DNA from: Candidatus Saccharimonadota bacterium
GTDB lineage: Bacteria > Patescibacteriota > Patescibacteriia > 2-12-FULL-60-25
Assembly: GCA_963718585.1 (NCBI GenBank)
Contig: OY970357.1
Coordinates: 960,001-992,000, forward strand
Length of the DNA: 32,000 nt
Reading direction: 5' to 3'
Of this stretch, positions 2,194 to 31,977 are shown piece by piece; position 1 is the stretch's first letter, and each line of letters begins with the position of its first letter. A model generated the notes under the pieces. It did no database searches. It was not told where the DNA came from and saw only the letters and a list, made by a program, of their open reading frames with translations. A program made the position numbers and the translations under genes.

Positions 2194-2940
2194 TTACATC
2201 TTTTTCGCTGTATTGAGCCGAAAAAGACGGTACCGTATTTTGGCTAAACCCAGCAGAAAATCCCACCCATCTCGCCAAATGAGCAACGCACTCCGACGGG
2301 CCGGATCCCGATGCTCCACCCATTGGACCGGGATCTCCCGGATGTTCAGCTCTGCGGCATTGGCCAATGCTAAGAGCTCGGTATCGAATAACCACCCATT
2401 CTCCTGGCACGTCGGGAGGAGTTGTGCGGCCGCATGACGTGAAATGGCTTTGAACCCGCATTGAGCATCTTGGACCGGGAGCCGGAGGATGCTCCGTTGA
2501 AGCACCCGGTATAAACGGGACAGAACCTCCCGATGTGCCCTTCGTTTGGTCCGTGCGCCTGACACGAAGCGCGACCCGCAAACGACATCCGCGTCTCCGG
2601 ATCGAATGGGCTCGATCAGGTCCGACAATGCCCCGAGGTCCGCGGCAAGATCCGCGTCCATGAACACAAGAATGTCCGCCCCATCCACATGCGCCATCCA
2701 TGAAGTTCGGATCGCGCGCCCTTTCCCCGCATCAGGGATCTGTCTGAGGTAGAGGTCTGATTCGATCCACTGGAGTGCTTGGACGATATCGGCCGTTCGA
2801 TCTGTGCTGCCATTGTCTACGACCTCGATCCGGACCGCGTCATCAGGAAGGCGTTGGAGGATGGCATCATGCAAGATCTCAAGTGAACGACGGATGATCG
2901 TCGCTTCGTTCCAGACGGGGAGGGTGATGAGGATGCGCAT
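2194..2940 (-). CDS. Family-2 glycosyltransferase (GT-A fold), polyprenol-phosphate sugar synthase-like (DPM1/GtrB-like)
   Basis: ORF track, 248 aa. N-terminus MRILITLPVWNEATIIRRSLEILHDA...VVDNGSTDRTADIV and the FMDADLAADL (DxD) motif are typical of GT2 enzymes. Its start is 3 nt after the stop of the GT-C gene. Confidence 0.8.
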   Translation of the reverse strand: MRILITLPVWNEATIIRRSLEILHDAILQRLPDDAVRIEVVDNGSTDRTADIVQALQWIESDLYLRQIPDAGKGRAIRTSWMAHVDGADILVFMDADLAADLGALSDLIEPIRSGDADVVCGSRFVSGARTKRRAHREVLSRLYRVLQRSILRLPVQDAQCGFKAISRHAAAQLLPTCQENGWLFDTELLALANAAELNIREIPVQWVEHRDPARRSALLIWRDGWDFLLGLAKIRYRLFRLNTAKKM

Positions 2941-2943
2941 GGA

Positions 2944-4530
2944 TCAATTCGGGGGTACATGGTTCGTCGATGACGCAGTGACGAGAAAGGCCGCGCTATC
3001 TGTGGCGTCTGCGATCCGCACATACCGCGGATCTTGGAGGATCCGATCCAAGAAGACCTGATGATGTGCTTTGCTCACAAAGACGAAACGCGCATGCAGT
3101 CCATCATGGATGAGCGCCCAGGTCTGATCTTGGGTCGACGTTGAAAGATCCCATGTCACATCGCGGACCTGATCAGACAACGTCGATGATGCGACAAAGA
3201 GAAACGTCGGGTCCAGTCCGGAAACGTACCGGAGACGATCGTCCGCCGCAAACAGAGGGGGAAATTCATCCCAATCTGTATGGAAGACGCGATCTCCGGG
3301 TCGCGCACGTTCTGAGATGGCGTCCATGCTCACCTGGTAGACCGTGTCCGGGTATCGGATGGGATGAAACGATCGCCAAAGGATCTCCACCTGCCTTCCG
3401 AGGAGCAACAGGACGGCACTGACCACCGCGCTCACCATGAACCAACGAAGGACCGGTTGCATGGAACTGAGCATCTTTTGATAGGAATCCCGAAATCGCT
3501 GCACGTCGACCAATGACCAGATCGCTGCGGTCCAGATGGCCGCGACCGGGATCAAATACTCGATGGATCGTTGGCTTTTCAGGGTCAGGGCGAGAAAGAC
3601 AGCGACGACCCAACCGAATGATGCGACGAACCGCGCGATCTCCGATGCGAATGGCCGACGTGGTGCAAGCGCGATGCCTGCGCATCCAAGGATCAAAAGG
3701 AGGAGCCAAGGGGCGGTCATGACGACGAGCTGACCCGGACCGATCGGCAGCCACTCGGACCCAAGGACCACGTGACCGTACGGCGTCCCAAGGCCGATGG
3801 TCACGATCTGTGTCCATGAGAGTTTGAAGATGTTCAGAGCATTGGGATGCGCAAGAAGACCGACGACTCCGCCGACCAAGACCGACCCGATCTCGCGCCA
3901 ACGCGTTTGGACGACAGCCCGCCTCAATGGAACGTTCTCGACGATCATCTCATACAGAACATCCCCAAAAGTAAGCAGGATGGCGGCTCCGGCGAGAAAC
4001 GGCCAGCCCGCATACGAAAAAGCGAAGGCAGATCCAACGAGACCGGACAAGACCCAACGCCGCTTCCACACGGCGAGGATGCCGAGCAAGAACCAGATGA
4101 GCGCCAGCGGAGTCGCCTTCCCGATGGTGAGACGAAAGAGGAACGGTTCTGAAAAAAGAAGGACCGCGACCCACAACAATGCATATCGAAAACGAAGACG
4201 ACGGACAACAAGATCGAAGACCGTGAGACAGAGCCCGACGAGGACCACTGAGGCGATCCGTGATCCATTGAACAGCCCAAAAACCGCGGTAAACGGTGCG
4301 ACGAAAAGATGGAAACCGAAATGGAGGTCTGCGAAGGTCTGACCAAAAGAGGTCAGATCCAGCCATGGAAAGCTCTTCAGGGGCCCATGCGCCCAGATGA
4401 GCGCCGCCATCTTCGCATGATAGAACGCATCCGGGTCCGCAAAACCCGTCCACGAAATGAAGAGGGACGCCCACGCCGACGCCACTGCCCAGATCCCAAT
4501 GGATCGCTTCCACGTCTTCAACCAGCTCAT
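2944..4530 (-). CDS. GT-C superfamily integral-membrane glycosyltransferase (ArnT/PMT/STT3-like), 528 aa
   Basis: ORF track 2944..4566, whose first codon is GTG. I prefer ATG at 4530 (MSWLKTWKRSIGIWAVASAW...). Roughly 12 hydrophobic segments are followed by a ~130-aa soluble C-terminal domain. An acidic first-loop motif ADPDAFYH lies at 4417..4440, and TDWDEF at 3262..3279. Pairing with a GT2 gene is the classic lipid-carrier glycosylation arrangement. Confidence 0.6.
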   Translation of the reverse strand: MSWLKTWKRSIGIWAVASAWASLFISWTGFADPDAFYHAKMAALIWAHGPLKSFPWLDLTSFGQTFADLHFGFHLFVAPFTAVFGLFNGSRIASVVLVGLCLTVFDLVVRRLRFRYALLWVAVLLFSEPFLFRLTIGKATPLALIWFLLGILAVWKRRWVLSGLVGSAFAFSYAGWPFLAGAAILLTFGDVLYEMIVENVPLRRAVVQTRWREIGSVLVGGVVGLLAHPNALNIFKLSWTQIVTIGLGTPYGHVVLGSEWLPIGPGQLVVMTAPWLLLLILGCAGIALAPRRPFASEIARFVASFGWVVAVFLALTLKSQRSIEYLIPVAAIWTAAIWSLVDVQRFRDSYQKMLSSMQPVLRWFMVSAVVSAVLLLLGRQVEILWRSFHPIRYPDTVYQVSMDAISERARPGDRVFHTDWDEFPPLFAADDRLRYVSGLDPTFLFVASSTLSDQVRDVTWDLSTSTQDQTWALIHDGLHARFVFVSKAHHQVFLDRILQDPRYVRIADATDSAAFLVTASSTNHVPPN

Positions 4531-4617: not shown

Positions 4618-5004
4618 CTATTGTGTCGCGTTGATGAGGGAACCGAGGACGAAGTTGGAGATGGCGAAAGCCGCGACGATCACGACCAGCCCGATGATGG
4701 ACTGACGAATGATGTTCTGCGCCTTTTCGACATTCCCCTTCTCGCCTTGCGCGGTCATCCAAAGGAACCCGGCATAGATGAGAAGAACCAGGAAAACGAT
4801 GCCGAGGAACCCGAGGAGAACGTTGATGATATTCCCGATGATCGCAGGAAGGCTGGTCTGTGTCCCGACGCCAGCATTCTGCTGGACCGTCTTGATATCG
4901 TTCAGACCGCGCCCGAGTGCGCCACCGGATTGGGCGAATGCCGCGAACGGGGCGAATGCCGCGGCCGCGAGCCCAAGCCAATAGGTTTTCTTCAGGAGCT
5001 TCAT
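4618..5004 (-). CDS. TrbC/VirB2-like (T4SS-pilin-like) small membrane protein, paralogue 1 (128 aa)
   Basis: The ORF track ORF starts at a TTG (5058) that overlaps the upstream gene. ATG at 5004 gives MKLLKKTYWLGLAAAAFAPFAAFA/QS, a classic signal peptide. The C-terminal half, IIGNIINVLLGFLGIVFLVLLIYAGFLWMTAQGEKGNVEKAQNIIRQSIIGLVVIVAAFAISNFV, is two TM helices around a short polar loop. That is the VirB2/TrbC pilin layout. Confidence 0.75.
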   Translation of the reverse strand: MKLLKKTYWLGLAAAAFAPFAAFAQSGGALGRGLNDIKTVQQNAGVGTQTSLPAIIGNIINVLLGFLGIVFLVLLIYAGFLWMTAQGEKGNVEKAQNIIRQSIIGLVVIVAAFAISNFVLGSLINATQ

Positions 5005-5041
5005 AGGAGTGATAAGTGAATCTGCACGAATAGTCTCTGCG

Positions 5042-5461
5042 TTAGGCACCCGGGGCAATAGCGGTACTCAGACGATCGATCACCGTATATGCGATGGCAT
5101 TGGCCGTGACGATGATCACGAGACCGATGACGGCATTACGGATCGTCGCGACTGCTTTATCGACCTTCCCTTTATCACCACCCGCCGTCATCCAGAGGAA
5201 CCCCCCGTACACGAGGTATCCGAGGAGCAGGATGCCGAGGAACGAGATCAGCACATTGAGGATATTCCCAATGATGGCTGGCAGCTGATCTGCCGACGCC
5301 GGTTGAGCTCCGTATCCAGCGGCTGCGGCATTCAAGCCGGATTGGATGCGCGACGTTACGCTCTGTGCCGAAGCCGGGAGCGCAAACACGAGGACCGCAC
5401 TGGCGATGATGCCGGTGCAGACCGTGGCGTGGAAAAAAGAAGTGATACGCGTTGCCTTCAT
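5042..5461 (-). CDS. TrbC/VirB2-like (T4SS-pilin-like) small membrane protein, paralogue 2 (139 aa)
   Basis: ATG start. Signal peptide ...VLVFALPASA/QS. Conserved core IIGNILNVLISFLGILLLGYLVYGGFLWMTAGGDKGKVDKAVATIRNAVIGLVIIVTANAIAY. Confidence 0.8.
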   Translation of the reverse strand: MKATRITSFFHATVCTGIIASAVLVFALPASAQSVTSRIQSGLNAAAAGYGAQPASADQLPAIIGNILNVLISFLGILLLGYLVYGGFLWMTAGGDKGKVDKAVATIRNAVIGLVIIVTANAIAYTVIDRLSTAIAPGA

Positions 5462-5467
5462 ACATGT

Positions 5468-5489: not shown

Positions 5490-5501
5490 GCGATGGAATG
5501 A

Positions 5502-6370: not shown

Positions 6371-6381
6371 GGGAGGGTGGG

Positions 6382-26400: not shown

Positions 26401-29400
26401 GTTCTGAGTACTGGTTCCGGTCGTCAGATAATCGCCCGCGCCGTTGTACGTCCAGTCAGGCGACGCACTTGAACAATTCGTCCCGTCCTGGAGACAAACG
26501 GCCTGACCCTTCACCGTCAACCCACCGGCGAACGATGAGGTCACGGATCCGAGGGAGGCGAGCGACGGGACAGAGAAGGTCGAGGGAGTGAATGTGAAAG
26601 CCGTTCCGCCAAACTTTACGTTATCGAGGAAACCAGCATTGAGGCCTGAGGAAGCGCTCGGATCCTTCGCATACATCCATCGGAACGTATGTGCGCCGGG
26701 TCCGACAGAGCCGGTCACGGTCGTCCAGCTCACGAGGCCGCTGATCCGTGACGTATACCCGGCCGTGCGTGTGCAGGCGTCATTATCAAGGCAGAAAAGG
26801 AGATAATCGAAACCTGATTCTGAGCTGACCTGCCAATCGAAACTGTACGTCGTTGTCGCAGAAAACGCTTGCTGGGTTTCTAAGTATGAAGATTGGTTAT
26901 CCGTGATGGGCCCGCTCGTCGCGGACGCGAAACCATCGGTCGACGTGGTCGTGATCCGTCCCCAAGGGAGATTGCCACCCGTCGTCCACCCGCTCGGTGG
27001 GAACGTCGATCCTTCAAAACTCTCCTTTGACTGAGTCGTGACATATCCGTCGCCATAATGCGTGGGACCAGACCCGACCACGAGCTCCCCATTTGTATAC
27101 ACGCTGGATGCAGAACCGATGTTCCCTCCCACGAAGAGGTCATTCCCATTCAGACTGAACGCCGAATCCATGAATGAGGCAGATGAGGACGTCCCACCGA
27201 TCACCACGTTCGTGTTCGTACTGTAGCCGAAGTAGACATTGGATGTTCCGACGGTTCCGCCGGAAAGGTCGAAGTACGCGGCCGCTCCCGCGGTCGAGGT
27301 ATTCGCCGCACCGAGCACGAGGTCGGTCGTCGCGGTCGCGTTATGGACAAAATTACCCGTGGGACTGAAGGTCCAGTTGAGATCCGCCGTGCTGGTGCCT
27401 GAGGAACCGGATACGGTCTGACAATTCGTCCCGTCCGAAAGACACACATTCACATCTTTCACCGTCAGATCCCCCTCGAAATTCCACAAGGTCGTTGAAC
27501 TTGAGATGAAGGAAAATTTATCTTCTGACGTATTGAATGACACGTTATCGACATTCCCTGCGTTTCGGAACAATAAGTTGCTACTATCCGTCGAAAACAG
27601 CCACCGGAACGTATGTGTCCCAGCGGCGACCGTCCCGCTTACGCTCGCCCACTGTGTTTGACCGCTGATCCGATAGGTATACCCCGATGCACTTGTACAC
27701 GCATCGTTATCCAGACAAAAACTCAAGTAATCAAAGTTGGTCTCAGAACTGACTTCCCAGTCGAAACTGTATGTCGACGTCGCGGGGAAGGTCTTCTGAA
27801 CTTCCAAGTAGGTCGATTGATTGTTGTTGATGAAACTACTTGAGGCAGAGGCGATCCCATCTGTCGATGTCGCCGTCGTCCGTGCCCAGACCGCGTCGCC
27901 GCCCGTCGTCCAGTCGGAGCTCGGCGGGAACGTCGACCCTTCGAAACTCTCCGAGATCGTCACCGGGACCAAATGGGCTTCAGCGCTGGAAATATATCCA
28001 TTCCCGTAATGGGTCGATCCATTCCCAGCCACGAACTCTCCATTCGTATAGACACTGCTCGCAGATCCAATGTTCCCACCGACAAAGAGGTCATTCCCAT
28101 TTAAGGAGAATGCCGGATTCATAAAGCCGACGGTCGTGGATGATCCACCGATCACGACATTCGTATTCGTGCTGTAGCCGAAATACACGGTAGACGTTCC
28201 CGCCGTACCTCCGGAAAGGTCGAAGTAACCCGCCGCACCAGCCGTCGACGTGTTCGCGGCGCCAAGGACAATGTCCGTCGTCGCCGTCGCGTTGGAAACG
28301 TAATCACCTGTTCCGTTGTAGGTCCAGTTCAGGTCCGTCGTGCTTCCGCCTCCTCCGCCGGTACAGTTCGTCCCGTCCGCAAGACAGACGAGCTTCCCTC
28401 CGACGGTGAGCCGATTTGAGACTTCCGCATTCGTGGTCGACACGGCAAAGGCGAATGTCGATGTTGCCGTTCGTGATCCAGCGGTGATCGCCCCATCGGT
28501 ATAGATCCCTCCGATACCGGCACTTAGTGCACCGTTGACGGAGAAGTTTCCTGAGACCCACCCACTCCCATCAACGCGAAGCGATCCAAGCTCAGCATTT
28601 GCCGCAACGAGTCCGGACGTTTCCGTTCCGAGAATATCAACGATGGAAAGGCTGTTGGCCGCAGTATTCGAGATATACGCATACCGACCGGAGATGACGA
28701 TCCCCTTCGGGGTTGATGCGGTCGTTGTAGCCGCCAAATGGACCGGACTTCCCGGAACCGAGACATCAAGGACGTCCAATCCGCCATTCGACTGGGTGAT
28801 ATAAACATATCTTCCAGACACCGCGATCCCTTCCGGATAATCCGTATAATAGGTGCTTGAAGCGATGGTCGGTGAAGTGGGATCCGTGACTTTGATGATG
28901 TCGACATCATTATTCAAGAATCCCGCAACATAGGCATAAGCCCCTTGGACCGCGATCCCCTGCGGATTGGTCGTTGGGAGCAATACCGAACCAACGATGG
29001 ACGGAGACAGTGGATCGCTGATATCGATCACAGTGACATACGAAGTCCCTGAATTGATCGCGTAAAGATACTTCCCCTGGACCGCAAGTCCGATCGCTCC
29101 GCTCAACGTGACAGATGTTGCAACGGTTGGATTCAACGGATCCTTAATGTCAAAGATCTCGATCCTATTATTACCAGCGGCAAATGCGTAATTCCCCTGG
29201 ACCGTCAGATCTCCCGTCGCCGTGATGGTCGTAGAGGCAACATCTACGAGTGACGAGGGATTCGAGATGTCATACACGATCAGATGTGTCCCGCAGGTAC
29301 CTAGATTCGTCAGATACGCATACTTCCCGCGCACCGCAATGGATTTGGCATTACAATACGTATTCGCGGTAAGGATATTGATCGGTGTTATGGGATCCGT

Positions 29401-31977
29401 TGCATTGAAGACCTCCAGACCGCCGGAATTCGCGTCGATCGGCACGTAGACATACCGTCCGTCGACCGCGGCTCGTTGCGGTGTATTGATGAGGCCTGTC
29501 GTTGAGATCACACGCATGACCGTATCCGTCGCCATCGTATTGTCGATATCCGAATGAACGCGAACGGAAGCGGTGCTCGTCACGGGGGACAACGTATTCG
29601 TCGTTCCGTTGTATGACCAATTCGGTGTCGTAGATCCGCAGTTCGTCCCATCTGCAAGACACACGGATTGTCCACCGACGGTGGTGTTCGATGAGAGCGT
29701 CGCAGCGCTGGATACGACGAGATTGGTGGATGAGGCCGTACCGACGACCGTCAGATCTCCGCCGGTCGAGATCGAACCGACCGCATATATCCGATCTCCG
29801 GACGTGATCCCGTTACGGACGTAGAGATGCTGCGCGATATCCGCATCACCCAAGACACTCAACGAACCGAGATTCGCCGAATGGGCGATGAGTCCGTTGG
29901 TCTCGATCCCGGAGATGTCGATCACCGAGACGGTGTCGTCCCCCGTGTTCGCGACATAGAGATACCGTCCTTGGATGGTGATGCCATCGGGAGAAGTTCC
30001 GACCGTGATCGTGCTTACGACGACGGGATTCGTCGGATCCGCGAGATCGACCACAGAAACCGTTCCATCCCCCGAATTCGTGATATATGCATACCGTCCG
30101 CTCAAGGCGACTCGGGACGGGGTTGAACCAACAGCTACCGTCGCCGTCAGGACCGGATCCGTCGAGCTCGCGATATCGACCACGGCCAAAGTGCTGGAAC
30201 CGCTGTTGACGACATAGGCGTACTCACCGGAGTACGCGACATCCGTCGGAGCCGCGCCGCTCCCGAGGGACAACGTGCCAAGAACGGATGCATCCGTGGG
30301 ATCAGAACTCAGAATCATGAATGAATCGGATCCGTAACCCGTGACCAGGAGCTCGGGACCGTCTGCCGCAACCCCACGGGGGATCGTCCCACCACTGAAC
30401 GTCGTCGATGACGCGATGAAGGGTGCGCTTGGTTTGGAAATATCGACGACGTTGAGTTTATCACCATCAAGAGTGATATACGCGTACTGCCCCTGGATCG
30501 CGACACGTCGAGGATCCGTCATCCCAATGCCCGTAAGCACCGTCGGCGTCGAGGGGTCTGCAAGATCCATCGTTGCGATCGTTACGGCATTTTGGGCGGT
30601 GATGACCGCAACGCGCTCCGTGACGGCGATATCCGTGGTGCCGATCGACGAGTAGGTGAATGCCCCGAGCGCCTCCGGCTTCGACGGGTCGGTGATGTCG
30701 TAGGTCTGGATCGTATTTGTCGCGGCCAAGTAACCGAACGTTCCTTTCGGGACGAACTTCACTGGAAATGTCGCGGCCGCTGTGGTCGTCACGGTCGTGA
30801 ACGATTGTCCCGTCTCCAAGATGTTCTGGACGTTTCCGACGACAGTCAGTTTTGCGGCTGACGACGTCGCTGTGCCGATCACGACACGCGTGTCCGTGTT
30901 GTACCCAAAATAAGCGGTCGAGACACCCGTTGTGCCGCCGGACAGGTCGAAGTAGATCGGCGCGCCTGCCGTCGAGGTATCCGCCGCGCCAAGGACGACA
31001 TCCGTGGTCGCCGTCGCATTGTGCACGAAGTCCCCGGACGCATCATATGTCCAATTGAGGTCGAATCCCCCACTTGAGGCCGTGCAGTTCGTCCCGTCCG
31101 CAAGACAGACGAGCTGACCTTGGACCGTCAACGATGAACCCGATGCAGAAGTGAAGGCGAGTGTCGTCGCCGTCGCCTCGGTCGCGGTGAGGAAACTCGA
31201 TGTCAGATTGGTCACGACCCCATTCGTCGCGAACAGGTTCGTCGTTGTTGCAGATGTACCGGTTGCAAAGGTATAGGTCAAAGTCTGAAGATCTGCCGTT
31301 CCGGTCGATGTCAACCGGCTTCCCACAAGGACCCCCCCATATGCGTAGATCAGATCCGTCGTATTGTCTCCATTGTCTGTGATCGTTTGGAGTGTCGCGG
31401 TCGTCGCCGGCGCGCCGCCTGTGATCGCCGTCCCGTTGACGTAGAGATTCGTCGTCGAGACCGTGGTCGCCCCCAACCAACTCGATGTTGCGTTCGTAAA
31501 CACCGCGTTGGTCGATGAGACGGTCGTCGCAATGACGTTCGTCGACGTCACCGTCCCGACATTGAGCCCAAGCCATCGCAAGCTGGCCGAACCGAGCGAA
31601 TAGGTCAGATCCGCCACTGGCAAGACATCCGTGTTGATGTGCCCATTCAGCGCGATCAGATCAGACGCACCGGAACCCAAGGTCGTACTCCCCTGGATAT
31701 CGAGATTTCCGGTAGACGTGACGCTGCCATTCCGGGAAATACTGAACACATTGGTCGCCCCAGCGAATCCTTGAACGAGGAAGTCATTACTGTCCGACGT
31801 CCCATCCGTCTGTACGACGAGCGCGGTCCGGGTCGCGGCCGCGGCATCGGCGGTCGTTTGATGGACCGCAAAGAGGGATCCACCCGCGGACGTGATCGAA
31901 GATGACGCGTATTGGCCCTGCAACTGTTCTGCGTTGAATGCATTTGGGACGGACGAAAGACGCTTTCGGGGCGTCAT
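17488..31977 (-). CDS. Giant LVIVD-repeat surface/fibre protein, at least 4,829 aa (frame remains open upstream to the window edge at 32000)
   Basis: Single uninterrupted ORF in the track. Its parts are: a tail-fibre-like N-terminus; 8 blocks of 7 LVIVD-like blades; 8 VCLADGTNC loops; 2 beta-sandwich modules; 2 DYAEYF/YDFAEMF-type C-terminal modules; and an S/T-rich tail. Codons upstream of ATG 31977 (..TVGSDSE-M) contain no stop before nt 32000, so the true start may lie outside the window. Confidence 0.9.
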   Translation of the reverse strand: MTPRKRLSSVPNAFNAEQLQGQYASSSITSAGGSLFAVHQTTADAAAATRTALVVQTDGTSDSNDFLVQGFAGATNVFSISRNGSVTSTGNLDIQGSTTLGSGASDLIALNGHINTDVLPVADLTYSLGSASLRWLGLNVGTVTSTNVIATTVSSTNAVFTNATSSWLGATTVSTTNLYVNGTAITGGAPATTATLQTITDNGDNTTDLIYAYGGVLVGSRLTSTGTADLQTLTYTFATGTSATTTNLFATNGVVTNLTSSFLTATEATATTLAFTSASGSSLTVQGQLVCLADGTNCTASSGGFDLNWTYDASGDFVHNATATTDVVLGAADTSTAGAPIYFDLSGGTTGVSTAYFGYNTDTRVVIGTATSSAAKLTVVGNVQNILETGQSFTTVTTTAAATFPVKFVPKGTFGYLAATNTIQTYDITDPSKPEALGAFTYSSIGTTDIAVTERVAVITAQNAVTIATMDLADPSTPTVLTGIGMTDPRRVAIQGQYAYITLDGDKLNVVDISKPSAPFIASSTTFSGGTIPRGVAADGPELLVTGYGSDSFMILSSDPTDASVLGTLSLGSGAAPTDVAYSGEYAYVVNSGSSTLAVVDIASSTDPVLTATVAVGSTPSRVALSGRYAYITNSGDGTVSVVDLADPTNPVVVSTITVGTSPDGITIQGRYLYVANTGDDTVSVIDISGIETNGLIAHSANLGSLSVLGDADIAQHLYVRNGITSGDRIYAVGSISTGGDLTVVGTASSTNLVVSSAATLSSNTTVGGQSVCLADGTNCGSTTPNWSYNGTTNTLSPVTSTASVRVHSDIDNTMATDTVMRVISTTGLINTPQRAAVDGRYVYVPIDANSGGLEVFNATDPITPINILTANTYCNAKSIAVRGKYAYLTNLGTCGTHLIVYDISNPSSLVDVASTTITATGDLTVQGNYAFAAGNNRIEIFDIKDPLNPTVATSVTLSGAIGLAVQGKYLYAINSGTSYVTVIDISDPLSPSIVGSVLLPTTNPQGIAVQGAYAYVAGFLNNDVDIIKVTDPTSPTIASSTYYTDYPEGIAVSGRYVYITQSNGGLDVLDVSVPGSPVHLAATTTASTPKGIVISGRYAYISNTAANSLSIVDILGTETSGLVAANAELGSLRVDGSGWVSGNFSVNGALSAGIGGIYTDGAITAGSRTATSTFAFAVSTTNAEVSNRLTVGGKLVCLADGTNCTGGGGGSTTDLNWTYNGTGDYVSNATATTDIVLGAANTSTAGAAGYFDLSGGTAGTSTVYFGYSTNTNVVIGGSSTTVGFMNPAFSLNGNDLFVGGNIGSASSVYTNGEFVAGNGSTHYGNGYISSAEAHLVPVTISESFEGSTFPPSSDWTTGGDAVWARTTATSTDGIASASSSFINNNQSTYLEVQKTFPATSTYSFDWEVSSETNFDYLSFCLDNDACTSASGYTYRISGQTQWASVSGTVAAGTHTFRWLFSTDSSNLLFRNAGNVDNVSFNTSEDKFSFISSSTTLWNFEGDLTVKDVNVCLSDGTNCQTVSGSSGTSTADLNWTFSPTGNFVHNATATTDLVLGAANTSTAGAAAYFDLSGGTVGTSNVYFGYSTNTNVVIGGTSSSASFMDSAFSLNGNDLFVGGNIGSASSVYTNGELVVGSGPTHYGDGYVTTQSKESFEGSTFPPSGWTTGGNLPWGRITTTSTDGFASATSGPITDNQSSYLETQQAFSATTTYSFDWQVSSESGFDYLLFCLDNDACTRTAGYTSRISGLVSWTTVTGSVGPGAHTFRWMYAKDPSASSGLNAGFLDNVKFGGTAFTFTPSTFSVPSLASLGSVTSSFAGGLTVKGQAVCLQDGTNCSSASPDWTYNGAGDYLTTGTSTQNVLLGGSLSVNSPSNPLGVANLIPNGTGSVYGTAVQNKYLYAAGGTNFYAIDISNPALPVVVGTSTGFTDIEQIAVAGNYAYVGEHSSSYGFKVIDISDPAHPVNMGSVGLSRQVDQIRIKGTYAYVANYLDGMKVIDISDPASPTVVATLSGSYAYGLDIRGDYAYLALGVGGKHFEVVDISDPLNPTIVSTPTFSSVDTNHVYVDGRYAYVENWSDQLNIFDISSSTVPTLVVSKTGITGGSGQRKDIVVSGDYAYIVGNGKIAIVDVSDRTNPTLLTTTSTGGTTPMDITVSGKYAYVGTGSSGLYVIDLQGAKISTANIGNLSVDDQNINRDLTIGNRLMVGGNVAIGNDLTVRGQRVCTADGTGCLWTTNADGTLSPTLSGQTIDVTGHLDALPTSTTAFTTVRSVSTSNGTQRGIQIQGDLAFTAGAGRLIIYDISKPSSTSVISNTFFGGCSTCVPHMFKVDGNYVYIVQDNNAGATMFQAIDVSDPTNPYRVGDLSIAGGLQAIDVEGRYAYIVNNSTNKLYSVDISNPASMQVVSSTAVSSTPRDIRVRNGLAYVISQGSDVMETFDVSNPNNMRWVSSVHTDQYTGDAPGAWSMALQGHFAYVDNYTSGTIAVIDISSTSSPSVVGQVTTSQVFPDDIYASGRYVYAALYGNLSGHGIDIIDVSSSTRPVIANSFSNPYGYYTVTANGRYLYAINYGSTPFDVIDLGTGIETNGLIAHNAQIGQLGVNGDANVGGDIVVRGSATIGRGGLYTDGAFTAGSSVTSTFLNDIKTTKLLTVNGSGTSTFLGATSATRGEYSLGLTVGGVSVCLKDETNCPPRALYWTYNGASSTLETVTSTVDVKFGGDINNTLISNDTFSNVSTTIDGSPVKVQYQNSYVYVLTASNTLQIFHADLDGTVSSTSDTVVTSTSKGLGDMAVLGNHAYFTYGDRRAVMGVDITDPYHPTTSTVVGDTTDNSISARYVAAQGHYVYVLGSSALSIFDVSTSTFSLVGHLTGLDTNGDVTISGDRAYVTGFSTTLQIVDISDPTNPILAGTWSAPDSERGFDVQIQDDLAYILPGQGAGAYYILNVASSTNIVALGSAGTGYQSTYVRGSIAGRYLYTGDSAYCNGSGPRGALHVYDVASSTNPFEVLHDYPGGKDAVFDSSDYRVIDVDVNGRYAYVGLSDTGTGCKNDGTNSLVVVDVNGVDTNGLNAQSAQIGKLNVTGNAQFTKDFTIDGKRACLEDGTNCSSSDPNWFYNPYNDSLSNLRGSTVGVDGNFQNILQSDSTGTHLGGYTRGAFAGDDFRDMTAAGDYLYAMNYGTAQLQIFDVKNASSPALVNSLSLGSQPTHMTVQGGLAYIAEFAAADLRVVDLQNPYAPVTVSTSSVTGALSVAVQGKYAFVGTSLNGLYVFDISSPSGPLLVTTSTVLSSIHYTDMVVQGGYLYVSDDFNGNLDTIDIRDPKNPTLAHTTALGGSSGGKAISIAGSRVYVAETSSNSLAVYSISNPALPSLKGTASLNGAPTDVTVSGRYAYVSINQSGAKEVDVVDLNSDTSPTLITTVSTYAGNGAQSVAVSGRRLYIGTDETATVARIDIFTIGGTEVSSLTAHSAEVGTLQVDGQATFQNGISVNGGISVGGGISTLGSVGIGKSLTVAGDISNILQTSSTLTRLGNWTTGLDTGYDYRTVRVVGDFAYALSNGNHELDIFNVRDPANPTYVTSVNAGISPQKMRISAGYAYIADVSEGDLRIIDIRDPYAPQTVATTSVSGADSVEIKGHYAYVGQSIGSLYVFDVTDPALPSFVTSTNFSSSVRFKDMTTQGNYLYVGDNFYGQLLVVDISDPERPTLVSTKALYGTSGAEGLAVEGSHIYVIESGTHRFVSYDITDPTNPTTSTTGLITFAADPAGISLAGRYAYVTVHGSGVKEVDVIDVQDPSNPILISRNQTVGATPQSIFVKGRDLYVGNAEPRFEIYDIHGEEVNGLIAHSADLGQLQVDGDGYIQNDLAVNGALNVGGSIQATGGIGASKIKINDTFTHVYASTVYDGNAFSSPGQLVRGLKVSGRYLVYLTQSDGVLKIADVHDPTNPVVISSTACGVSPTSLAVQGTLVAADCNHYINIYDISDPSNPELLSSTANGTGALSYMQFHGRMLIGINTNVNKIYPINISDPKHPMAYTGLSPSSGTWSSMDVQGRYAYVSNGTGVLDIVDISDPENLKIVGTQFLIFPSNALVDHVQGRYAYMVNNSHNELVIVDISNSQSPHFATAVGIPNIYAAVPHGNLLFVGTNTNVMKIYDITQPLDPKLIKTTDETYGGISSLTDVDVDGRYVYVGISANSSDPSLSIYEMGGIEASAGQFSSLDTGAFSVRGDITSFGDISTIGSLTAQGAMFNDEVAIYGNASSSYGALRVVSNCGGTSSVNRRIAGFATSTVNLDDAVSIRCNGQLYADNGTIGSGGDYAEYFTSDQGAYGAGNVMALDPTSATSATLGDESLRKYTLGVISARPVVTGMGQLENDASATLVGLLGQLETKVDATTSSISIGDELMMGTDGSAVKAKGPGMVLGMAMEPLSSGTGTMMVYVSPHWWAGDLFISNETGSLLIGDLTNASTTVATSTVTTVDSPLFSFRGSAWDSASSSVITSQFNLYADMQSATTSYFAMTSNATDTNILTVSPLGDLAISGKLYPSDRGNLQYNKYIFYDGSSGLFGDYMRTNAAGWGTGSYDFAEMFPSSETLEPGDIVVLDPTLPQGVKKSTSAYEQNILGIVSTRPGFLAGNNATSSYPIALSGRVPTKVSDENGPVHAGDMLTPSSQPGIAMKATGPGPVVGVAMQDMQGTAVTSVIAYVHVEWNGASASGASSGSGSTGSTVIRKGFAKIFAGSQEVTVSFDTIQAYPMILATPVGQAGDWWISNQTDSGFTINLAAAENHDVLFSWTAEATPSGTVLTNSDNTYTEIDPTSGDPVAPPPPGSSTTTSSGSTGSTTSTTSTTP
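17650..17855 (-). other. Terminal small beta-sandwich-like domain, followed by an S/T/P-rich low-complexity tail (17491..17649)
   Basis: VIRKGFAKIFAGSQEVTVSFDTIQAYPMILATPVGQAGDWWISNQTDSGFTINLAAAENHDVLFSWTAEA, then ...PPPPGSSTTTSSGSTGSTTSTTSTTP. Any resemblance to H-type-lectin-like fibre tips is from memory only. Confidence 0.35.
17910..18297 (-). other. C-terminal module 2, a paralogue of module 1 (Peptidase_G2/IMC-like)
   Basis: GSYDFAEMFPSSETLEPGDIVVLDPTLPQGVKKSTSAYEQNILGIVSTRPGFLAGN...GDMLTPSSQPGIAMKATGPGPVVGVAMQDM...VIAYVHVEW. It is colinear with module 1. Confidence 0.5.
18690..19089 (-). other. C-terminal module 1 resembling the phage Peptidase_G2 / intramolecular-chaperone autoproteolytic domain
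   Basis: GGDYAEYFTSDQGAYGAGNVMALDP...LRKYTLGVISARPVVTG...GDELMMGTDGSAVKAKGPGMVLGMAMEP...MVYVSPHWW. As I recall the family pattern, it is (ADYAE[YM]FEW..., G.FV.L.G.KI..A, ILGVVSA.P...G). Not verified by search. Confidence 0.5.
19405..20340 (-). repeat. LVIVD-type beta-propeller module 8 of 8 (7 blades)
   Basis: Blade ends: ADVHDPTNP, YDISDPSNP, INISDPKHP, VDISDPENL, VDISNSQSP, YDITQPLDP, and exit YEMGGIEASAGQFSSLDTGAFSV. Confidence 0.65.
20515..21430 (-). repeat. LVIVD-type beta-propeller module 7 of 8 (7 blades)
   Basis: Blade ends: FNVRDPANP, IDIRDPYAP, FDVTDPALP, VDISDPERP, YDITDPTNP, IDVQDPSNP, and exit YDIHGEEVNGLIAHSADLGQLQV. Confidence 0.65.
21640..22560 (-). repeat. LVIVD-type beta-propeller module 6 of 8 (7 blades); colinear paralogue of module 7
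   Basis: Blade ends: FDVKNASSP, VDLQNPYAP, FDISSPSGP, IDIRDPKNP, YSISNPALP, VDLNSDTSP, and exit IDIFTIGGTEVSSLTAHSAEVGTLQV. Confidence 0.65.
22825..23790 (-). repeat. LVIVD-type beta-propeller module 5 of 8 (7 blades, most degenerate); boundaries approximate
   Basis: Blade ends: IFHADLDGT, VDITDPYHP, FDVSTSTFS, VDISDPTNP, LNVASSTNI, YDVASSTNP, and exit VDVNGVDTNGLNAQSAQIGKLNV. Confidence 0.55.
24255..25190 (-). repeat. LVIVD-type beta-propeller module 4 of 8 (7 blades); boundaries approximate
   Basis: Blade ends: YDISKPSST, IDVSDPTNP, VDISNPASM, FDVSNPNNM, IDISSTSSP, IDVSSSTRP, and exit IDLGTGIETNGLIAHNAQIGQLGV. Confidence 0.65.
25465..26360 (-). repeat. LVIVD-type beta-propeller module 3 of 8 (7 blades); boundaries approximate
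   Basis: Blade ends: IDISNPALP, IDISDPAHP, IDISDPASP, VDISDPLNP, FDISSSTVP, VDVSDRTNP, and exit IDLQGAKISTANIGNLSV. Confidence 0.65.
26500..28389 (-). repeat. In-frame tandem duplication inside the giant gene: two ~315-aa units (27448..28389 and 26500..27447)
   Basis: Each unit has the same parts in the same order: VCL(A/S)DGTNC; DLNWT(Y/F)...HNATATTD(I/L)VLGAANTSTAGAA.YFDLSGGT.GTS.VYFGYSTNTNVVIGG; an identical run FSLNGNDLFVGGNIGSASSVYTNGE; and ESFEGSTFPPS..WTTGG...FDY L.FCLDNDACT...HTFRW...DNV.F. The protein copies are highly similar, while the DNA copies have diverged. Confidence 0.85.
28635..29500 (-). repeat. LVIVD-type beta-propeller module 2 of 8 (7 blades); boundaries approximate
   Basis: Blade ends: FNATDPITP, YDISNPSSL, FDIKDPLNP, IDISDPLSP, IKVTDPTSP, LDVSVPGSP, and exit VDILGTETSGLVAANAELGSLRV (28561..28660). 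Confidence 0.65.
29911..30800 (-). repeat. LVIVD-type beta-propeller module 1 of 8 (7 blades); boundaries approximate
   Basis: Blade ends: YDITDPSKP, MDLADPSTP, VDISKPSAP, ILSSDPTDA, VDIASSTDP, VDLADPTNP, and exit IDISGIETNGLIAH (29881..29940). Confidence 0.65.

What the first reader, a model, noticed from the sequence alone, without database searches (positions are those of the whole stretch)
2194..31977. Locus-level hypothesis: a surface-appendage and glycosylation island (giant propeller fibre + Wzy_C-TPR + pilin-like array + SBP + GalU/GT2/GT-C)
Seen: apart from ychF, the GFA gene, the ABC-F gene and the tRNA, every gene between 2.2 and 32 kb encodes a secreted, membrane or envelope-sugar function, and all are on the same strand. 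The components are:
- a fibre of at least 4,829 aa with phage-fibre-like termini
- a Wzy_C-TPR enzyme immediately downstream of it
- six VirB2-like proteins, two of them with displayed Cys-knots
- an orphan SBP
- a UDP-glucose to polyprenol-P-sugar to GT-C transfer route

Established: each component class is individually known.

Inference: together they could form an undescribed system in which a glycosylated, self-processing giant fibre and a pilin-like membrane platform mediate contact with, or uptake from, a host cell. That would fit the episymbiotic lifestyle proposed for CPR bacteria. This is the speculative synthesis of the separate findings above.
Basis: inference. Interest (0 to 1): 0.7.

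Follow-up and report, generated by a model that had tools for sequence, protein, structure and literature searches.

The report
Two envelope gene modules, not one island
The genes are real, but comparison with about 160 related loci splits the supposed island into two separately conserved cell-surface gene modules of a Candidatus Uhrbacteria-like (CPR) genome that lie side by side only in some relatives.

Summary
The gene inventory is largely right. It holds a giant LVIVD beta-propeller fibre of at least 4,829 aa (its 5' end is cut by the window), an 822-aa membrane-TPR protein and six VirB2-like PF18895 genes. It also holds a sugar-type SBP lipoprotein, GalU, a DPM1-like GT2 and a 528-aa membrane protein.

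Two labels lacked HMM support, and I tested them by structure prediction:
- The 822-aa protein has no Wzy_C Pfam hit. Its only significant Foldseek match is the WaaL O-antigen ligase.
- The 528-aa protein has no Pfam hit. It is a confident GT-C fold, closest to STT3, AglB and PglB.

Synteny in 80 genome loci and 80 metagenome loci shows two independent modules:
- Module A is fibre, WaaL-fold-TPR and a cytoplasmic ~270-aa partner. A fibre homologue occurs in 52/80 loci anchored on the TPR protein and in 1/80 control loci.
- Module B is (GalU), SBP, the VirB2-like array, GT-C and GT2. A pilin-like gene follows the SBP in 57/61 loci. No T4SS gene was seen in the subset of neighbouring genes I annotated.

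A and B are adjacent in only 10/27 close relatives and 0/12 distant ones. Of loci anchored on the SBP, 2/26 have the TPR protein nearby. Same-strand orientation fits replication bias. The single-system reading is therefore only partly supported. The two conserved associations appear undescribed in the literature I could search.

The parts
17488..31977 (-). Module A: giant secreted fibre of at least 4,829 aa. The ORF is open to the window end at 32000, and the true start lies roughly 130-215 codons upstream. It has a T/S/G-rich N-terminal stalk, about 8 LVIVD beta-propellers, 8 Cys-pair linkers (7 of the form 'CLxDGTNC', one 'CTADGTGC') and two repeats of about 310 aa of an unannotated domain.
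   Evidence: LVIVD 7e-183 with 22 stretches, plus Beta_propel and Lactonase hits. ORF open at the 5' end. Linker motifs and propeller clusters. Homologue N-termini carry a hydrophobic anchor followed by an 'INYQG(R/K)L' domain. Weak tblastn similarity to cyanophage tail-fibre proteins.
17488..19410 (-). C-terminal cassette of the fibre. It has two Peptidase_G2-like units with D-x-A-E motifs (GGDYAEYF at residue 4299, SYDFAEMF at residue 4564) and a Ser/Thr/Pro-rich tail.
   Evidence: PF11962 at 2.1e-7, 31 bits against a cut-off of 25, two stretches. Five homologues of this cassette carry precomputed PF11962 and two carry PF13884. The Glu is invariant and the Asp nearly invariant in the family alignment. 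Weak tblastn hits to structural proteins of PA5oct-like jumbo phages.
17446..17466 (-). Terminator-like hairpin between the fibre gene and the WaaL-fold-TPR gene.
   Evidence: Stem of 9 pairs (6 G-C) followed by a T-rich tail. This is a consensus match only.
14927..17395 (-). Module A: 822-aa membrane protein. The N-terminal part (about 13 TM helices) has a WaaL (O-antigen ligase)-like fold. The C-terminal TPR domain (residues ~640-800) is probably extracytoplasmic.
   Evidence: TPR families at 1e-21. No Wzy_C HMM hit. AF2 pLDDT 81.8, pTM 0.87. Foldseek: 7tpg_B WaaL at E 1.2e-4, TM 0.50/0.60, the only hit at E<=1e-3. At least 174 relatives found in the species-representative genome collection.
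14032..14841 (-). Module A: conserved cytoplasmic helical protein of about 270 aa. The start is uncertain (14910, 14841 or 14769) and the function is unknown.
   Evidence: No TM segment. No Pfam or PDB match. Adjacent to the TPR gene in 43/46 close relatives and 1/21 distant ones. Invariant 'ADHP..R.E...SE' core within a 'GPxHADHPxVRAEIxRSE' consensus motif.
13879..13991 (-). tRNA-Ala(GGC) at 13916-13991, followed by a 16-bp terminator-like hairpin at 13916-13879. This is the probable end of the module A transcription unit.
   Evidence: ARAGORN and the terminator scan.
10248..13686 (.). Bystander genes between the modules: ABC-F (11842-13686, + strand), GFA (11344-11703, -) and YchF (10248-11339, -). 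YchF is the conserved downstream neighbour of the TPR gene in distant lineages. ABC-F and GFA are rarely found here in relatives.
   Evidence: Pfam and NCBIfam. YchF downstream in 12/12 distant and 12/27 close loci; ABC-F in 1/27; GFA in 0/27.
9132..10055 (-). Module B (facultative member): GalU, UTP-glucose-1-phosphate uridylyltransferase.
   Evidence: TIGR01099 at 4.6e-94. Adjacent upstream of the SBP in 24/59 SBP-anchored loci.
7685..9109 (-). Module B: carbohydrate-type solute-binding lipoprotein. No permease or ATPase genes lie nearby.
   Evidence: SBP_bac_1 at 2.8e-31. Lipobox 'VGAGC' in the sequence. A profile search hits sugar, maltose and trehalose SBP structures. A pilin-like gene lies within 1.5 kb downstream in 57/61 loci.
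4618..7682 (-). Module B: array of six VirB2-like (PF18895) genes: pil6 7110-7682, pil5 6382-7104, pil4 5984-6370, pil3 5502-5894, pil2 5042-5461 and pil1 4618-5004. Each has a signal peptide, a variable ectodomain and a two-helix hydrophobic hairpin. The two genes nearest the SBP carry Cys-rich ectodomains.
   Evidence: Pfam. NF045849 pilin-like hit for pil5. Hydropathy. Gene starts taken from calls on the same genome. Pairwise identity of the C-terminal hairpins is 26-55%, and Cys-rich ectodomains occur in 63/76 large versus 6/185 small array members across loci.
2944..4530 (-). Module B: 528-aa GT-C-fold glycosyltransferase, an unannotated family. It has an invariant D-P-D..Y-H after TM1 and a conserved 'WDEFP' in the C-terminal soluble domain.
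   Evidence: No Pfam or NCBIfam hit on it or on any of the 120 listed homologues. AF2 pLDDT 94, pTM 0.92. Foldseek hits STT3/OST-A at 5e-9, then AglB, PglB, DPY19, ALG9/12 and AftA/D; 18 hits at E<=1e-3. Invariant residues.
2194..2940 (-). Module B: DPM1/AglJ/PpgS-like GT2, a probable polyprenol-phosphate hexose synthase.
   Evidence: PF00535 at 2.8e-21. Weak NCBIfam hits to PpgS, AglJ and dolichyl-phosphate hexose transferase, all below the equivalog cut-offs. Best PDB match is dolichol monophosphate mannose synthase 5mlz at 2.9e-8. It directly follows the GT-C gene in L165, L166 and L167.
1..2050 (-). Downstream genes of uncertain membership: a 307-aa protein with no TM segment and no family (1127-2050), and the start of a 478-aa 8-TM protein (runs off at position 1). 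A promoter-like site at 2184-2156 suggests a separate transcription unit.
   Evidence: Genes of similar sizes follow in the same order in L167.

Best explanation
The 30-kb region is not one system. It is two independently conserved envelope modules of a Patescibacteria genome (closest relatives annotated Candidatus Uhrbacteria), placed near each other in this lineage and separated by variable and housekeeping genes.

Module A:
- Shown: a giant fibre of about 5,000 aa lies next to a conserved 13-TM WaaL-fold membrane protein with a TPR domain and a cytoplasmic helical partner.
- Shown: the fibre carries a C-terminal Peptidase_G2-like cassette, and homologues of it have an N-terminal hydrophobic anchor.
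- Inferred: the fibre is exported and anchored at its N-terminus.
- Inferred: the G2-like cassette acts as an intramolecular chaperone that helps fold or oligomerise the fibre and is then cut off at a D-x-A-E site.
- Inferred: the WaaL-fold enzyme uses its TPR domain to hold the fibre. It then transfers a lipid-linked glycan onto the Ser/Thr-rich stalk or tail, as PglL/PilO/WsaB-type O-oligosaccharyltransferases do. Alternatively it ligates the fibre or a glycan to the wall.

Module B:
- Shown: a sugar-type solute-binding lipoprotein is followed by an array of VirB2-like two-helix proteins. The large members with Cys-rich ectodomains come first and the small members last.
- Shown: a DPM1-like GT2 and an STT3-like GT-C are linked to this array, often with GalU.
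- Inferred: GalU makes UDP-glucose. The GT2 loads hexose onto polyprenol phosphate. After flipping, the GT-C transfers it to an extracytoplasmic acceptor, either the array proteins, the SBP or a wall polymer.
- Inferred: the VirB2-like proteins form a membrane or filament assembly that works with the SBP. No T4SS genes were found next to it.
For: Domain content and folds:
- Domain content of all genes.
- WaaL fold for the 822-aa protein: the only Foldseek hit at E<=1e-3, TM 0.50/0.60 over 463 columns.
- GT-C fold for the 528-aa protein: pLDDT 94, with STT3, AglB and PglB as top hits, and an invariant DPD in the first loop.
- GT2 closest to DPM synthase. SBP closest to sugar binders.

Module A linkage:
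- A fibre homologue is present in 52/80 TPR-anchored loci and 1/80 control loci, p = 5e-20.
- A fibre lies on either side in 20/20 close relatives and 8/12 distant ones.
- The fibre sits upstream in most loci but downstream of the partner gene in about 10, so the link survives rearrangement.
- In L055 the neighbouring 2,772-aa protein ends in Peptidase_S74, a different auto-chaperone.
- The partner gene is adjacent in 43/46 close relatives.

Module B linkage:
- A pilin-like gene lies within 1.5 kb of the SBP in 57/61 loci, while the upstream neighbours vary: YchF, GalU, LeuRS, SMC and ComM.
- Loci anchored on GT-C homologues of 36-43% identity again show SBP, then 5-8 PF18895 genes, then GT-C, with GT2 next in two of the three lineages.
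- In another lineage, GT2 plus a membrane protein of about 535 aa sit inverted inside the array.

Separation of A and B: counts, and housekeeping genes after YchF in distant loci.

Against: - All functions are inferred from folds and gene order. No expression, glycan or imaging data exist.
- The WaaL-fold protein fails the Wzy_C HMM, and its catalytic residues were not mapped.
- It is conserved at 50-74% identity and sits next to YchF, or next to a class A PBP in some loci. It may therefore serve a core wall function rather than fibre glycosylation, with large surface-protein genes simply accumulating beside it.
- CPR genomes keep long-range synteny, and housekeeping genes are interspersed in module B in some lineages. 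Part of the conservation may be inherited order.
- Module B does lie downstream of module A in 10/27 close relatives, so a lineage-specific functional link cannot be excluded.
- No N-X-S/T enrichment was found in the fibre or the pilin-like proteins, so an STT3-like N-glycosylation of these proteins has no sequence support.
- The ~535-aa GT2 partner in the distant lineage is not significantly related to the window's GT-C (hhalign E = 0.065).
- Only 10-kb flanks were examined. T4SS genes elsewhere in these genomes could still serve the array.
Confidence: 0.6

Rival explanations
1. All components (fibre, WaaL-TPR, VirB2-like array, SBP, GalU/GT2/GT-C) form one integrated surface apparatus for host contact or uptake.
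For: - The genes are adjacent and co-oriented in this genome.
- The same overall order (fibre, TPR, partner, YchF, GalU, SBP, array, GT-C) recurs in about 10 Uhrbacteria genomes, including L003, L007, L015, L019, L029, L037 and L041.
- A glycosylation route and a Ser/Thr-rich fibre occur in the same neighbourhood.
Against: - The two blocks are separate in 17/27 close and 12/12 distant TPR-anchored loci, and in 24/26 SBP-anchored loci.
- YchF, GFA, a tRNA and an opposite-strand ABC-F lie between them, along with terminator-like hairpins.
- Co-orientation fits replication bias.
Confidence: 0.12
2. The associations carry no functional meaning. The region is ordinary conserved core-genome synteny of small CPR genomes that happens to be rich in envelope genes.
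For: - Housekeeping genes sit inside or beside both blocks: YchF, SMC, ComM, LeuRS, a RodZ-like protein, GyrA, S6, SSB and EF-P.
- The TPR gene is highly conserved and always lies near YchF in distant lineages.
Against: - The SBP-to-pilin adjacency (57/61) persists while the upstream neighbours change completely.
- The fibre stays linked to the TPR gene although it switches sides and its sequence diverges to 30-45% identity.
- GT2 and GT-C stay with the array even when inverted.
- Fibre homologues are nearly absent from 0.88 Mb of control CPR DNA.
Confidence: 0.13
3. The VirB2-like array is the pilin set of a type IV secretion system encoded elsewhere in the genome, as described for Saccharibacteria. 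The SBP, GT2 and GT-C are unrelated neighbours.
For: - PF18895/TrbC hits.
- Published surveys report 441 VirB2 arrays of 2-11 genes in CPR. They report an essential pilin series inside the T4SS cluster of Ca. Southlakia epibionticum (PMC12102498, PMC10633639).
- In 813 of the 1,948 VirB4-containing assemblies that have VirB2-like genes, the pilin gene is not near virB4 (1,135 of 1,948 are near).
Against: - No VirB4, VirB6 or VirD4-like domain was seen in the window, in its left extension, or in the annotated neighbours of the SBP- and GT-C-anchored loci.
- Only a subset of those neighbouring genes was annotated, and only 10-kb flanks were seen.
- The SBP adjacency is nearly universal, which an unrelated neighbour would not show.
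Confidence: 0.15

Closest known systems
O-oligosaccharyltransferases of the O-antigen-ligase superfamily (WaaL; PglL/PilO; S-layer O-OTases WsaB/WsfB), often encoded beside their target surface protein. The family properties listed here are from my own knowledge.
   Same: - The membrane domain of the 822-aa protein has a WaaL-like fold.
- It is conserved next to a large Ser/Thr-rich secreted protein with a low-complexity S/T/P tail.
- It has a large loop between TM9 and TM10 that I infer to be extracytoplasmic, containing invariant Arg, Glu and Gly-x-Gly-Pro-Gly-Thr-Trp residues.
   Different: - No Wzy_C HMM match.
- An extra thirteenth TM helix and a C-terminal TPR domain.
- A cytoplasmic partner protein of unknown family.
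- Catalytic residues were not mapped and the glycan donor is unknown.
- The organism has no LPS.
Three-component extracytoplasmic glycosylation systems: a polyprenol-phosphate sugar synthase GT2 with a GT-C transferase. Examples are GtrB/GtrV, CsbB/YfhO, Ppm1/PMT, and archaeal AglJ with AglB. This description is from my own knowledge.
   Same: - A DPM1/AglJ-like GT2 lies directly beside a GT-C-fold enzyme with an acidic first-loop motif.
- GalU nearby could supply UDP-glucose.
   Different: - The GT-C belongs to an unannotated family with no Pfam hit on any listed homologue.
- No flippase gene was recognised.
- The strict WWDYG motif of STT3, AglB and PglB is absent ('WDEFP' instead).
- The acceptor is unknown.
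- The pair is embedded in an SBP plus VirB2-like array context, which I have not seen described.
VirB2-like pilin arrays of Patescibacteria (Microb Genom 2025, PMC12102498; Cell 2023, PMC10633639)
   Same: - Tandem arrays of 2-11 divergent PF18895/TrbC-like genes.
- The published average identity within arrays is about 25%. Here the hairpin domains are 26-55% identical.
   Different: - The published essential series lies inside a T4SS cluster. Here no T4SS gene was seen nearby.
- Here the array is instead coupled to a solute-binding lipoprotein and a GT2/GT-C pair.
- 'Solute' and 'substrate-binding' do not occur in the main texts of the papers where I searched for them.
Phage tail fibres and tailspikes with C-terminal intramolecular chaperone or autoproteolysis domains (phi29 gp12 Peptidase_G2; endosialidase Peptidase_S74)
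   Same: - A Peptidase_G2 HMM match and a conserved D-x-A-E motif.
- Weak similarity of both termini to phage fibre, baseplate or virion proteins.
- A relative's fibre uses Peptidase_S74 instead.
   Different: - It is chromosomal and conserved at one locus, with no other phage genes nearby.
- It is about 5,000 aa long, with about 8 LVIVD propellers and an N-terminal membrane anchor or signal.
- It carries two tandem G2-like units.

Membership tests
O-antigen ligase / Wzy_C (PF04932; WaaL, PglL) | Match to the Wzy_C profile HMM | tested here: not met
   No hit at E<=10 on the N-terminal 482 aa. None at E<=0.1 in NCBIfam. None of the 120 listed homologues carries a precomputed PF04932.
O-antigen ligase / Wzy_C (PF04932; WaaL, PglL) | WaaL-type polytopic membrane fold | tested here: met
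   AF2 model with pLDDT 81.8 and pTM 0.87. Foldseek against PDB: 7tpg_B WaaL at E 1.2e-4, probability 1.00, TM 0.50/0.60 over 463 columns. It is the only hit at E<=1e-3; the next hits are the SEDS protein FtsW.
O-antigen ligase / Wzy_C (PF04932; WaaL, PglL) | Catalytic His/Arg constellation at the periplasmic face | tested here: inconclusive
   Invariant R348, R364, E311 and H434, and nearly invariant H398, exist. They were not mapped onto WaaL residues.
GT-C glycosyltransferases (STT3/AglB/PglB-like) | GT-C membrane fold | tested here: met
   AF2 pLDDT 94, pTM 0.92. Foldseek gives 18 hits at E<=1e-3, all GT-C enzymes: STT3 at 5e-9, then AglB, PglB, DPY19, ALG9/12 and AftA/D.
GT-C glycosyltransferases (STT3/AglB/PglB-like) | Acidic D-x-D/E motif in the first extracytoplasmic loop | tested here: met
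   Invariant D32-P33-D34 with F36, Y37 and H38 directly after TM1 in 38 homologues.
GT-C glycosyltransferases (STT3/AglB/PglB-like) | WWDYG motif of oligosaccharyltransferase catalytic subunits, and STT3 profile-HMM membership | tested here: not met
   The consensus is 'WDEFP' (W420 and F423 nearly invariant, P424 invariant). No Pfam STT3 or PMT hit. No profile hit to any PDB sequence. I therefore file it as GT-C fold only, not as an STT3-family member.
T4SS pilin (PF18895 T4SS_pilin / PF04956 TrbC-VirB2) | Profile match, plus a signal peptide and two hydrophobic helices | tested here: met
   Six genes with E from 1e-5 to 1.5e-11. Five are above the 26.6-bit cut-off and pil5 scores 25.6. Hydropathy shows an N-terminal hydrophobic segment in five of the six ORFs and a C-terminal two-helix hairpin in all six.
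T4SS pilin (PF18895 T4SS_pilin / PF04956 TrbC-VirB2) | Genomic association with T4SS machinery (VirB4, VirB6, VirB3/8) | tested here: not met
   None was found in the window, in its 4-kb left extension, or in the annotated neighbours of the SBP- and GT-C-anchored loci. Whole genomes were not scanned.
Peptidase_G2 intramolecular-chaperone/autoproteolysis domain (PF11962) | Profile match and a conserved acidic D-x-x-E site | tested here: met
   31 bits against a cut-off of 25, in two stretches. PF11962 is precomputed on 5 homologues. In DFAE the Glu is invariant and the Asp nearly invariant. The catalytic role of the motif is from my memory of phi29 gp12.
Peptidase_G2 intramolecular-chaperone/autoproteolysis domain (PF11962) | Actual self-cleavage and release of the C-terminal part | not testable with these tools
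   This needs expression of the C-terminal ~640 aa and mass spectrometry.
ABC-importer solute-binding protein (SBP_bac_1, carbohydrate cluster) | SBP fold and profile | tested here: met
   PF01547 at 2.8e-31. A profile search hits sugar, maltose and trehalose SBP structures down to 2e-17.
ABC-importer solute-binding protein (SBP_bac_1, carbohydrate cluster) | Cognate permease and ATPase genes in the same operon | tested here: not met
   None in the window. None was seen in the annotated related loci, where the SBP is followed by pilin-like genes instead.
Polyprenol-phosphate hexose synthase (DPM1/GtrB/AglJ/PpgS-like GT2) | GT2 catalytic domain closest to this subfamily | tested here: inconclusive
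   PF00535 at 2.8e-21. The best NCBIfam hits are PpgS, AglJ and dolichyl-phosphate hexose transferase, but all fall far below the equivalog cut-offs. The best PDB match is DPM synthase 5mlz at 2.9e-8.
Horizontally acquired genomic island | Deviant composition, integrase or flanking repeats, patchy presence against a conserved backbone | tested here: not met
   GC is 0.52-0.61 with no sharp boundary. No integrase domain was found. The blocks sit in conserved positions next to core genes across many genomes. Flanking repeats were not searched.

The most novel reading that the evidence does not exclude
Module B (sugar-binding lipoprotein, ordered array of VirB2-like proteins with Cys-rich 'head' members, and a dedicated GT2/GT-C glycosylation pair) is a previously undescribed surface assembly. 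It would be widespread in Patescibacteria and would work without a type IV secretion machine. It could be a glycosylated filament or membrane platform that captures host-derived sugars or attaches to hosts. In parallel, the WaaL-fold-TPR enzyme would be a dedicated O-glycosylase or anchor for giant auto-chaperoned propeller fibres.
Probability: 0.25. Interest if true: 0.8.

Novelty: new variant of a known kind. Interest (0 to 1): 0.5.

Why it matters
How ultrasmall CPR/Patescibacteria cells attach to hosts and take resources from them is an open question. Published work points to type IV pili, a T4SS with VirB2-like pilin arrays, and adhesins.

This analysis gives two concrete, testable gene sets that recur across many uncultured lineages:
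- A giant self-chaperoned propeller fibre tied to a WaaL-fold-TPR enzyme.
- A VirB2-like array tied to a sugar-binding lipoprotein and a GT2/GT-C pair, with no T4SS genes seen in the flanks examined.

If the second set works without a T4SS, the many 'T4SS pilin' annotations in CPR genomes would need reinterpreting. The analysis also assigns folds to two large unannotated membrane-protein families (234 and 199 homologues detected). Finally, it warns against reading co-oriented envelope genes in small genomes as one island.

Tried and rejected
- Pfam and NCBIfam scans of the 822-aa N-terminal domain, the 540-aa ORF, the 292-aa ORF and the 307-aa ORF gave no informative family.
- Profile searches of the WaaL-fold domain, the GT-C family and the 292-aa family against PDB sequences gave nothing significant.
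I re-aligned with database homologues instead.
- An N-glycosylation reading of the STT3-like GT-C was tested by counting N-X-S/T sequons. The fibre has 61 observed against 62 expected (z = -0.15). The six pilin-like proteins have 0-1 each. I rejected it as unsupported.
- Homology between the window's GT-C and the ~535-aa GT2 partner of a distant lineage gave hhalign E = 0.065 with very low probability. This is not significant, although both share a DPD motif after TM1.
- A self-BLAST of the giant protein to define repeats returned only the identity hit. I used motif searches instead.
- The third homology search, with the fibre's C-terminal cassette, did not return the full-length source protein. 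The exact length of the fibre is therefore still unknown.
- A prophage or tailocin origin of the fibre was considered. I rejected it because no other phage genes are present and the locus is conserved.
- Literature searches for LVIVD in Patescibacteria and for O-antigen ligase with TPR in CPR found nothing.
Full report
WHAT IS IN THE WINDOW

ORF listing, tRNA scan and Pfam/NCBIfam scans give this map. All genes are on the minus strand unless noted.

| Coordinates | Gene |
|---|---|
| 17488-31977 | giant ORF of 4,829 codons |
| 14927-17395 | 822-aa membrane protein with C-terminal TPR repeats |
| 14032-14910 | unannotated ORF of about 270 aa |
| 13916-13991 | tRNA-Ala(GGC) |
| 11842-13686 (+) | ABC-F |
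| 11344-11703 | GFA |
| 10248-11339 | YchF |
| 9132-10055 | GalU |
| 7685-9109 | SBP_bac_1 lipoprotein |
| 4618-7682 | six PF18895 'T4SS_pilin' genes |
| 2944-4530 | 528-aa polytopic membrane protein |
| 2194-2940 | GT2 |
| 1127-2050 | unannotated 307-aa protein |
| 1-1123 | start of a 478-aa 8-TM protein |

- The window comes from a 1.08-Mb contig. The closest relatives of its proteins are annotated Candidatus Uhrbacteria or Patescibacteria.
- The giant ORF has no in-frame stop before the window end.
- Homologues align to its first residues only after about 130-215 N-terminal residues of their own. Those residues contain a hydrophobic anchor and an 'INYQG(R/K)L' domain. The real protein is therefore about 5,000 aa and is exported.

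CHECKING THE COMPONENT LABELS

*The fibre.*
- LVIVD repeats score E = 7e-183. Blade motifs cluster into about eight propellers.
- Eight Cys-pair linkers ('VCLxDGTNC'-like) separate the modules.
- The C-terminal ~640 aa match Peptidase_G2 at 31 bits in two stretches. They contain GGDYAEYF and SYDFAEMF.
- In homologues of this cassette the D-x-A-E site is conserved. Several carry a precomputed PF11962 and two carry Peptidase_S74.
- Both termini show weak tblastn similarity to phage fibre, baseplate or virion proteins.
- 'Phage-fibre-like termini' and 'self-processing' are thus reasonable. Cleavage itself is untested.

*The 'Wzy_C-TPR' enzyme.*
- No Wzy_C HMM hit exists for this protein or for any of its 120 listed homologues.
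- I predicted the N-terminal 500 residues from an alignment of 32 sequences (pLDDT 81.8, pTM 0.87).
- Foldseek against the PDB returned the WaaL O-antigen ligase 7tpg_B as the only hit at E<=1e-3 (E 1.2e-4, TM 0.50/0.60, 463 columns). SEDS proteins came next.
- The model has about 13 TM helices, one more than WaaL. With a positively charged N-terminus, this places the TPR domain outside the cell (inference).
- The label is therefore right at fold level but not at family-HMM level.

*The 'GT-C'.*
- The 528-aa protein and all of its listed homologues lack any Pfam domain.
- Its AF2 model is very confident (pLDDT 94).
- It hits only GT-C enzymes: STT3/OST-A at 5e-9, then AglB, PglB, DPY19, ALG9/12 and AftA/D.
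- An invariant D-P-D..Y-H follows TM1.
- The strict WWDYG motif is replaced by 'WDEFP', so I file it as GT-C fold and not as an STT3-family member.

*The other components.*
- The adjacent GT2 is closest to polyprenol-phosphate sugar synthases. These include PpgS, AglJ and dolichyl-phosphate hexose transferase (weak hits) and DPM synthase 5mlz.
- The SBP profile matches sugar-binding SBPs.
- The six pilin-like proteins each have the two-helix hairpin, and five of the six ORFs show an N-terminal hydrophobic segment.
- The two genes nearest the SBP carry 6-Cys modules ending in CC.

THE LOCUS-LEVEL TEST

*Set 1: loci anchored on the membrane-TPR protein.* I collected 80 species-level genome loci with 10-kb flanks. 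I searched them with all window proteins by tblastn and jackhmmer.

| Feature | Close relatives (anchor >=44% identity) | Distant relatives (30-44% identity) |
|---|---|---|
| Fibre homologue on either side (both flanks >=5 kb) | 20/20 | 8/12 |
| ~270-aa partner adjacent | 43/46 | 1/21 |
| YchF within 10 kb downstream | 12/27 | 12/12 |
| GalU downstream | 10/27 | 0/12 |
| SBP downstream | 11/27 | 0/12 |
| Pilin-like genes downstream | 10/27 | 0/12 |

- The fibre is usually directly upstream. In about ten loci it lies downstream of the partner gene.
- In distant loci YchF is followed by ribosomal protein S6, SSB, a class II aminoacyl-tRNA synthetase and EF-P.
- In some loci the gene upstream of the TPR gene is a class A PBP or an fn3-rich surface protein.
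- In L055 the upstream gene is a 2,772-aa protein ending in Peptidase_S74.
- As a background, fibre homologues occur in only 1 of the 80 loci of set 2 (0.88 Mb), against 52 of 80 here (Fisher p = 5e-20).

*Set 2: loci anchored on the SBP.* I collected 80 metagenome loci with SBP identity of 43-66%.
- A pilin-like gene lies within 1.5 kb downstream in 57/61 loci that have enough sequence.
- GalU is adjacent upstream in 24/59.
- A GT2 homologue lies within 10 kb downstream in 10/24.
- The TPR gene is upstream in only 2/26 and a fibre in 1/26.
- The upstream neighbours change completely between lineages: YchF, GalU, LeuRS, SMC plus ComM.
- In one lineage, GT2 plus a membrane protein of about 535 aa (and in L147 a weak PMT_2 protein) sit inverted between the first pilin-like gene and the rest of the array.

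*Set 3: loci anchored on GT-C homologues.* Look-ups of three homologues of 36-43% identity on long contigs again show SBP, then 5-8 PF18895 genes, then GT-C. GT2 follows directly in two of the three lineages. Canonical Wzy_C, GT4 and Polysacc_synt genes lie nearby.

No VirB4, VirB6 or VirD4 domain appeared in any neighbour that I annotated.

INTERPRETATION

There are two modules, not one.
- Module A is the fibre, the WaaL-fold-TPR protein and the cytoplasmic partner.
- Module B is (GalU), the SBP, the VirB2-like array, GT-C and GT2.

Each association survives rearrangement and changes of neighbours. This argues for functional coupling within each module. Their adjacency to each other is confined to a subset of Uhrbacteria.

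Several features of the window fit separate transcription units.
- ABC-F lies on the opposite strand.
- A tRNA sits between the modules.
- Terminator-like hairpins follow the fibre gene and the tRNA.
- Promoter-like sites lie before GFA and before the 307-aa gene. These are weak evidence.

The shared strand is explained by a monotonic cumulative GC skew. There is no compositional sign of a transferred island.

MOST LIKELY MECHANISM (INFERRED)

*Module A.*
- The fibre is exported and anchored at its N-terminus.
- Its G2-like C-terminal cassette acts as an intramolecular chaperone and is cut at D-x-A-E. This is by analogy with phi29 gp12, which I cite from memory.
- The WaaL-fold enzyme, holding the fibre through its external TPR domain, transfers a lipid-linked glycan to the Ser/Thr-rich stalk or S/T/P tail. 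PglL/PilO/WsaB-type O-oligosaccharyltransferases encoded beside their targets work this way.
- A core wall-biogenesis role for this enzyme is the main alternative. Its high conservation and its PBP and YchF neighbours point that way.

*Module B.*
- GalU supplies UDP-glucose.
- The GT2 makes polyprenol-phosphate-hexose.
- The GT-C transfers the hexose outside the membrane.
- The conserved neighbours (array proteins, SBP) are the best acceptor candidates. A wall polymer, as in CsbB/YfhO-type systems, is equally possible.
- N-glycosylation of the fibre or array proteins is not supported by sequon counts.
- The array probably encodes a heteromeric VirB2-like assembly. Large Cys-rich members come first and small members last, an order that recurs across loci.

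COMPARISON WITH THE LITERATURE

- VirB2-like arrays of 2-11 genes are already reported in CPR. An essential pilin series lies inside the T4SS cluster of a cultivated Saccharibacterium (PMC12102498, PMC10633639).
- The terms 'solute' and 'substrate-binding' do not occur in the main texts of the papers where I searched for them.
- Searches for LVIVD in Patescibacteria, and for O-antigen ligase with TPR in CPR, returned nothing.
- The component classes are therefore known. The two conserved associations appear undescribed, within the limits of the library I could search.

VERDICT

- The single-system interpretation is partly supported. Fibre and WaaL-TPR are linked, and so are SBP, array and GT-C/GT2. 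All of them together are not.
- Novelty: new variants of known kinds.
- Interest is moderate at 0.5. It is higher if module B proves to be independent of a T4SS.

Noticed in passing
window 31978-32000 and L016:14042-14500, L026:15058-15560: The giant ORF is cut by the window end. Homologues have about 130-215 extra N-terminal residues, with a hydrophobic anchor and an 'INYQG(R/K)L...LWS' domain.
   Followed up: partly
window 22700-31100 (giant residues ~291-3097): The giant protein has eight copies of a Cys-pair linker motif (seven 'CLxDGTNC', one 'CTADGTGC', most followed by NW[TS]Y). It also has two repeats of about 310 aa of an unannotated 'SFEGSTFPPSxWTTGG' domain with no Pfam hit.
   Followed up: partly
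window 6382-7682 and pilin-like ORFs of L003-L167: Large array members next to the SBP carry 6-Cys modules ending in CC. Across loci, 63/76 large pilin-like ORFs have at least 4 ectodomain Cys, against 6/185 small ones. The large-first, small-last order recurs.
   Followed up: partly
window 1-2050; L002:5506-9975; L167:12388-16797: Downstream of the GT2 lie a 307-aa protein of no known family, a 478-aa 8-TM protein and three small lipoprotein-like proteins. Genes of similar sizes follow in the same order in a genome whose GT-C is only 43% identical. They may extend module B.
   Followed up: partly
L163:11915-13111, L165:12933-15894, L167:18066-20710: Canonical Wzy_C (PF04932, about 400 aa), GT4 and Polysacc_synt (flippase-like) genes lie a few kb from the GT-C/GT2 pair in other lineages.
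   Followed up: no
L016:6983-9838, L028:6777-9635 (and L013, L020, L030, L069): In one subgroup the gene directly upstream of the WaaL-fold-TPR gene is a protein of about 951 aa. In L016, the only one I scanned, it is a class A penicillin-binding protein (Transgly + Transpeptidase). The fibre then lies downstream.
   Followed up: partly
L055:2-8320: A 2,772-aa protein upstream of the TPR gene in Parcubacteria SG8_24 ends in Peptidase_S74 (endosialidase chaperone) plus an extensin-like tail. A different auto-chaperone occupies the same genomic position.
   Followed up: partly
window 13879-13991: tRNA-Ala(GGC) is immediately followed by a perfect 16-bp hairpin with a T-rich tail. This is the strongest terminator-like site in the region.
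   Followed up: no
window 14032-14841 and A8: The ~270-aa partner protein is helical and cytoplasmic, with a conserved 'GPxHADHPxVRAEIxRSE' motif. Only sub-threshold hits to FlgN and chaperone-like families were found (E about 0.03).
   Followed up: partly
L003, L011, L015, L019 and other loci: Many MAG records carrying this Patescibacteria-type locus are titled 'uncultured Gammaproteobacteria' (one 'Methylomirabilis', one 'Vicinamibacterales'). These are probably mislabelled or mis-binned records.
   Followed up: no
L112:6887-8497 and 12 relatives (A6): A family of about 535-aa membrane proteins is paired with the GT2 in a distant lineage. It shares a 'DPD..WH' motif after TM1 and a C-terminal 'F(I)DGR' motif with the window's GT-C, but the profile comparison is not significant (E = 0.065).
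   Followed up: partly
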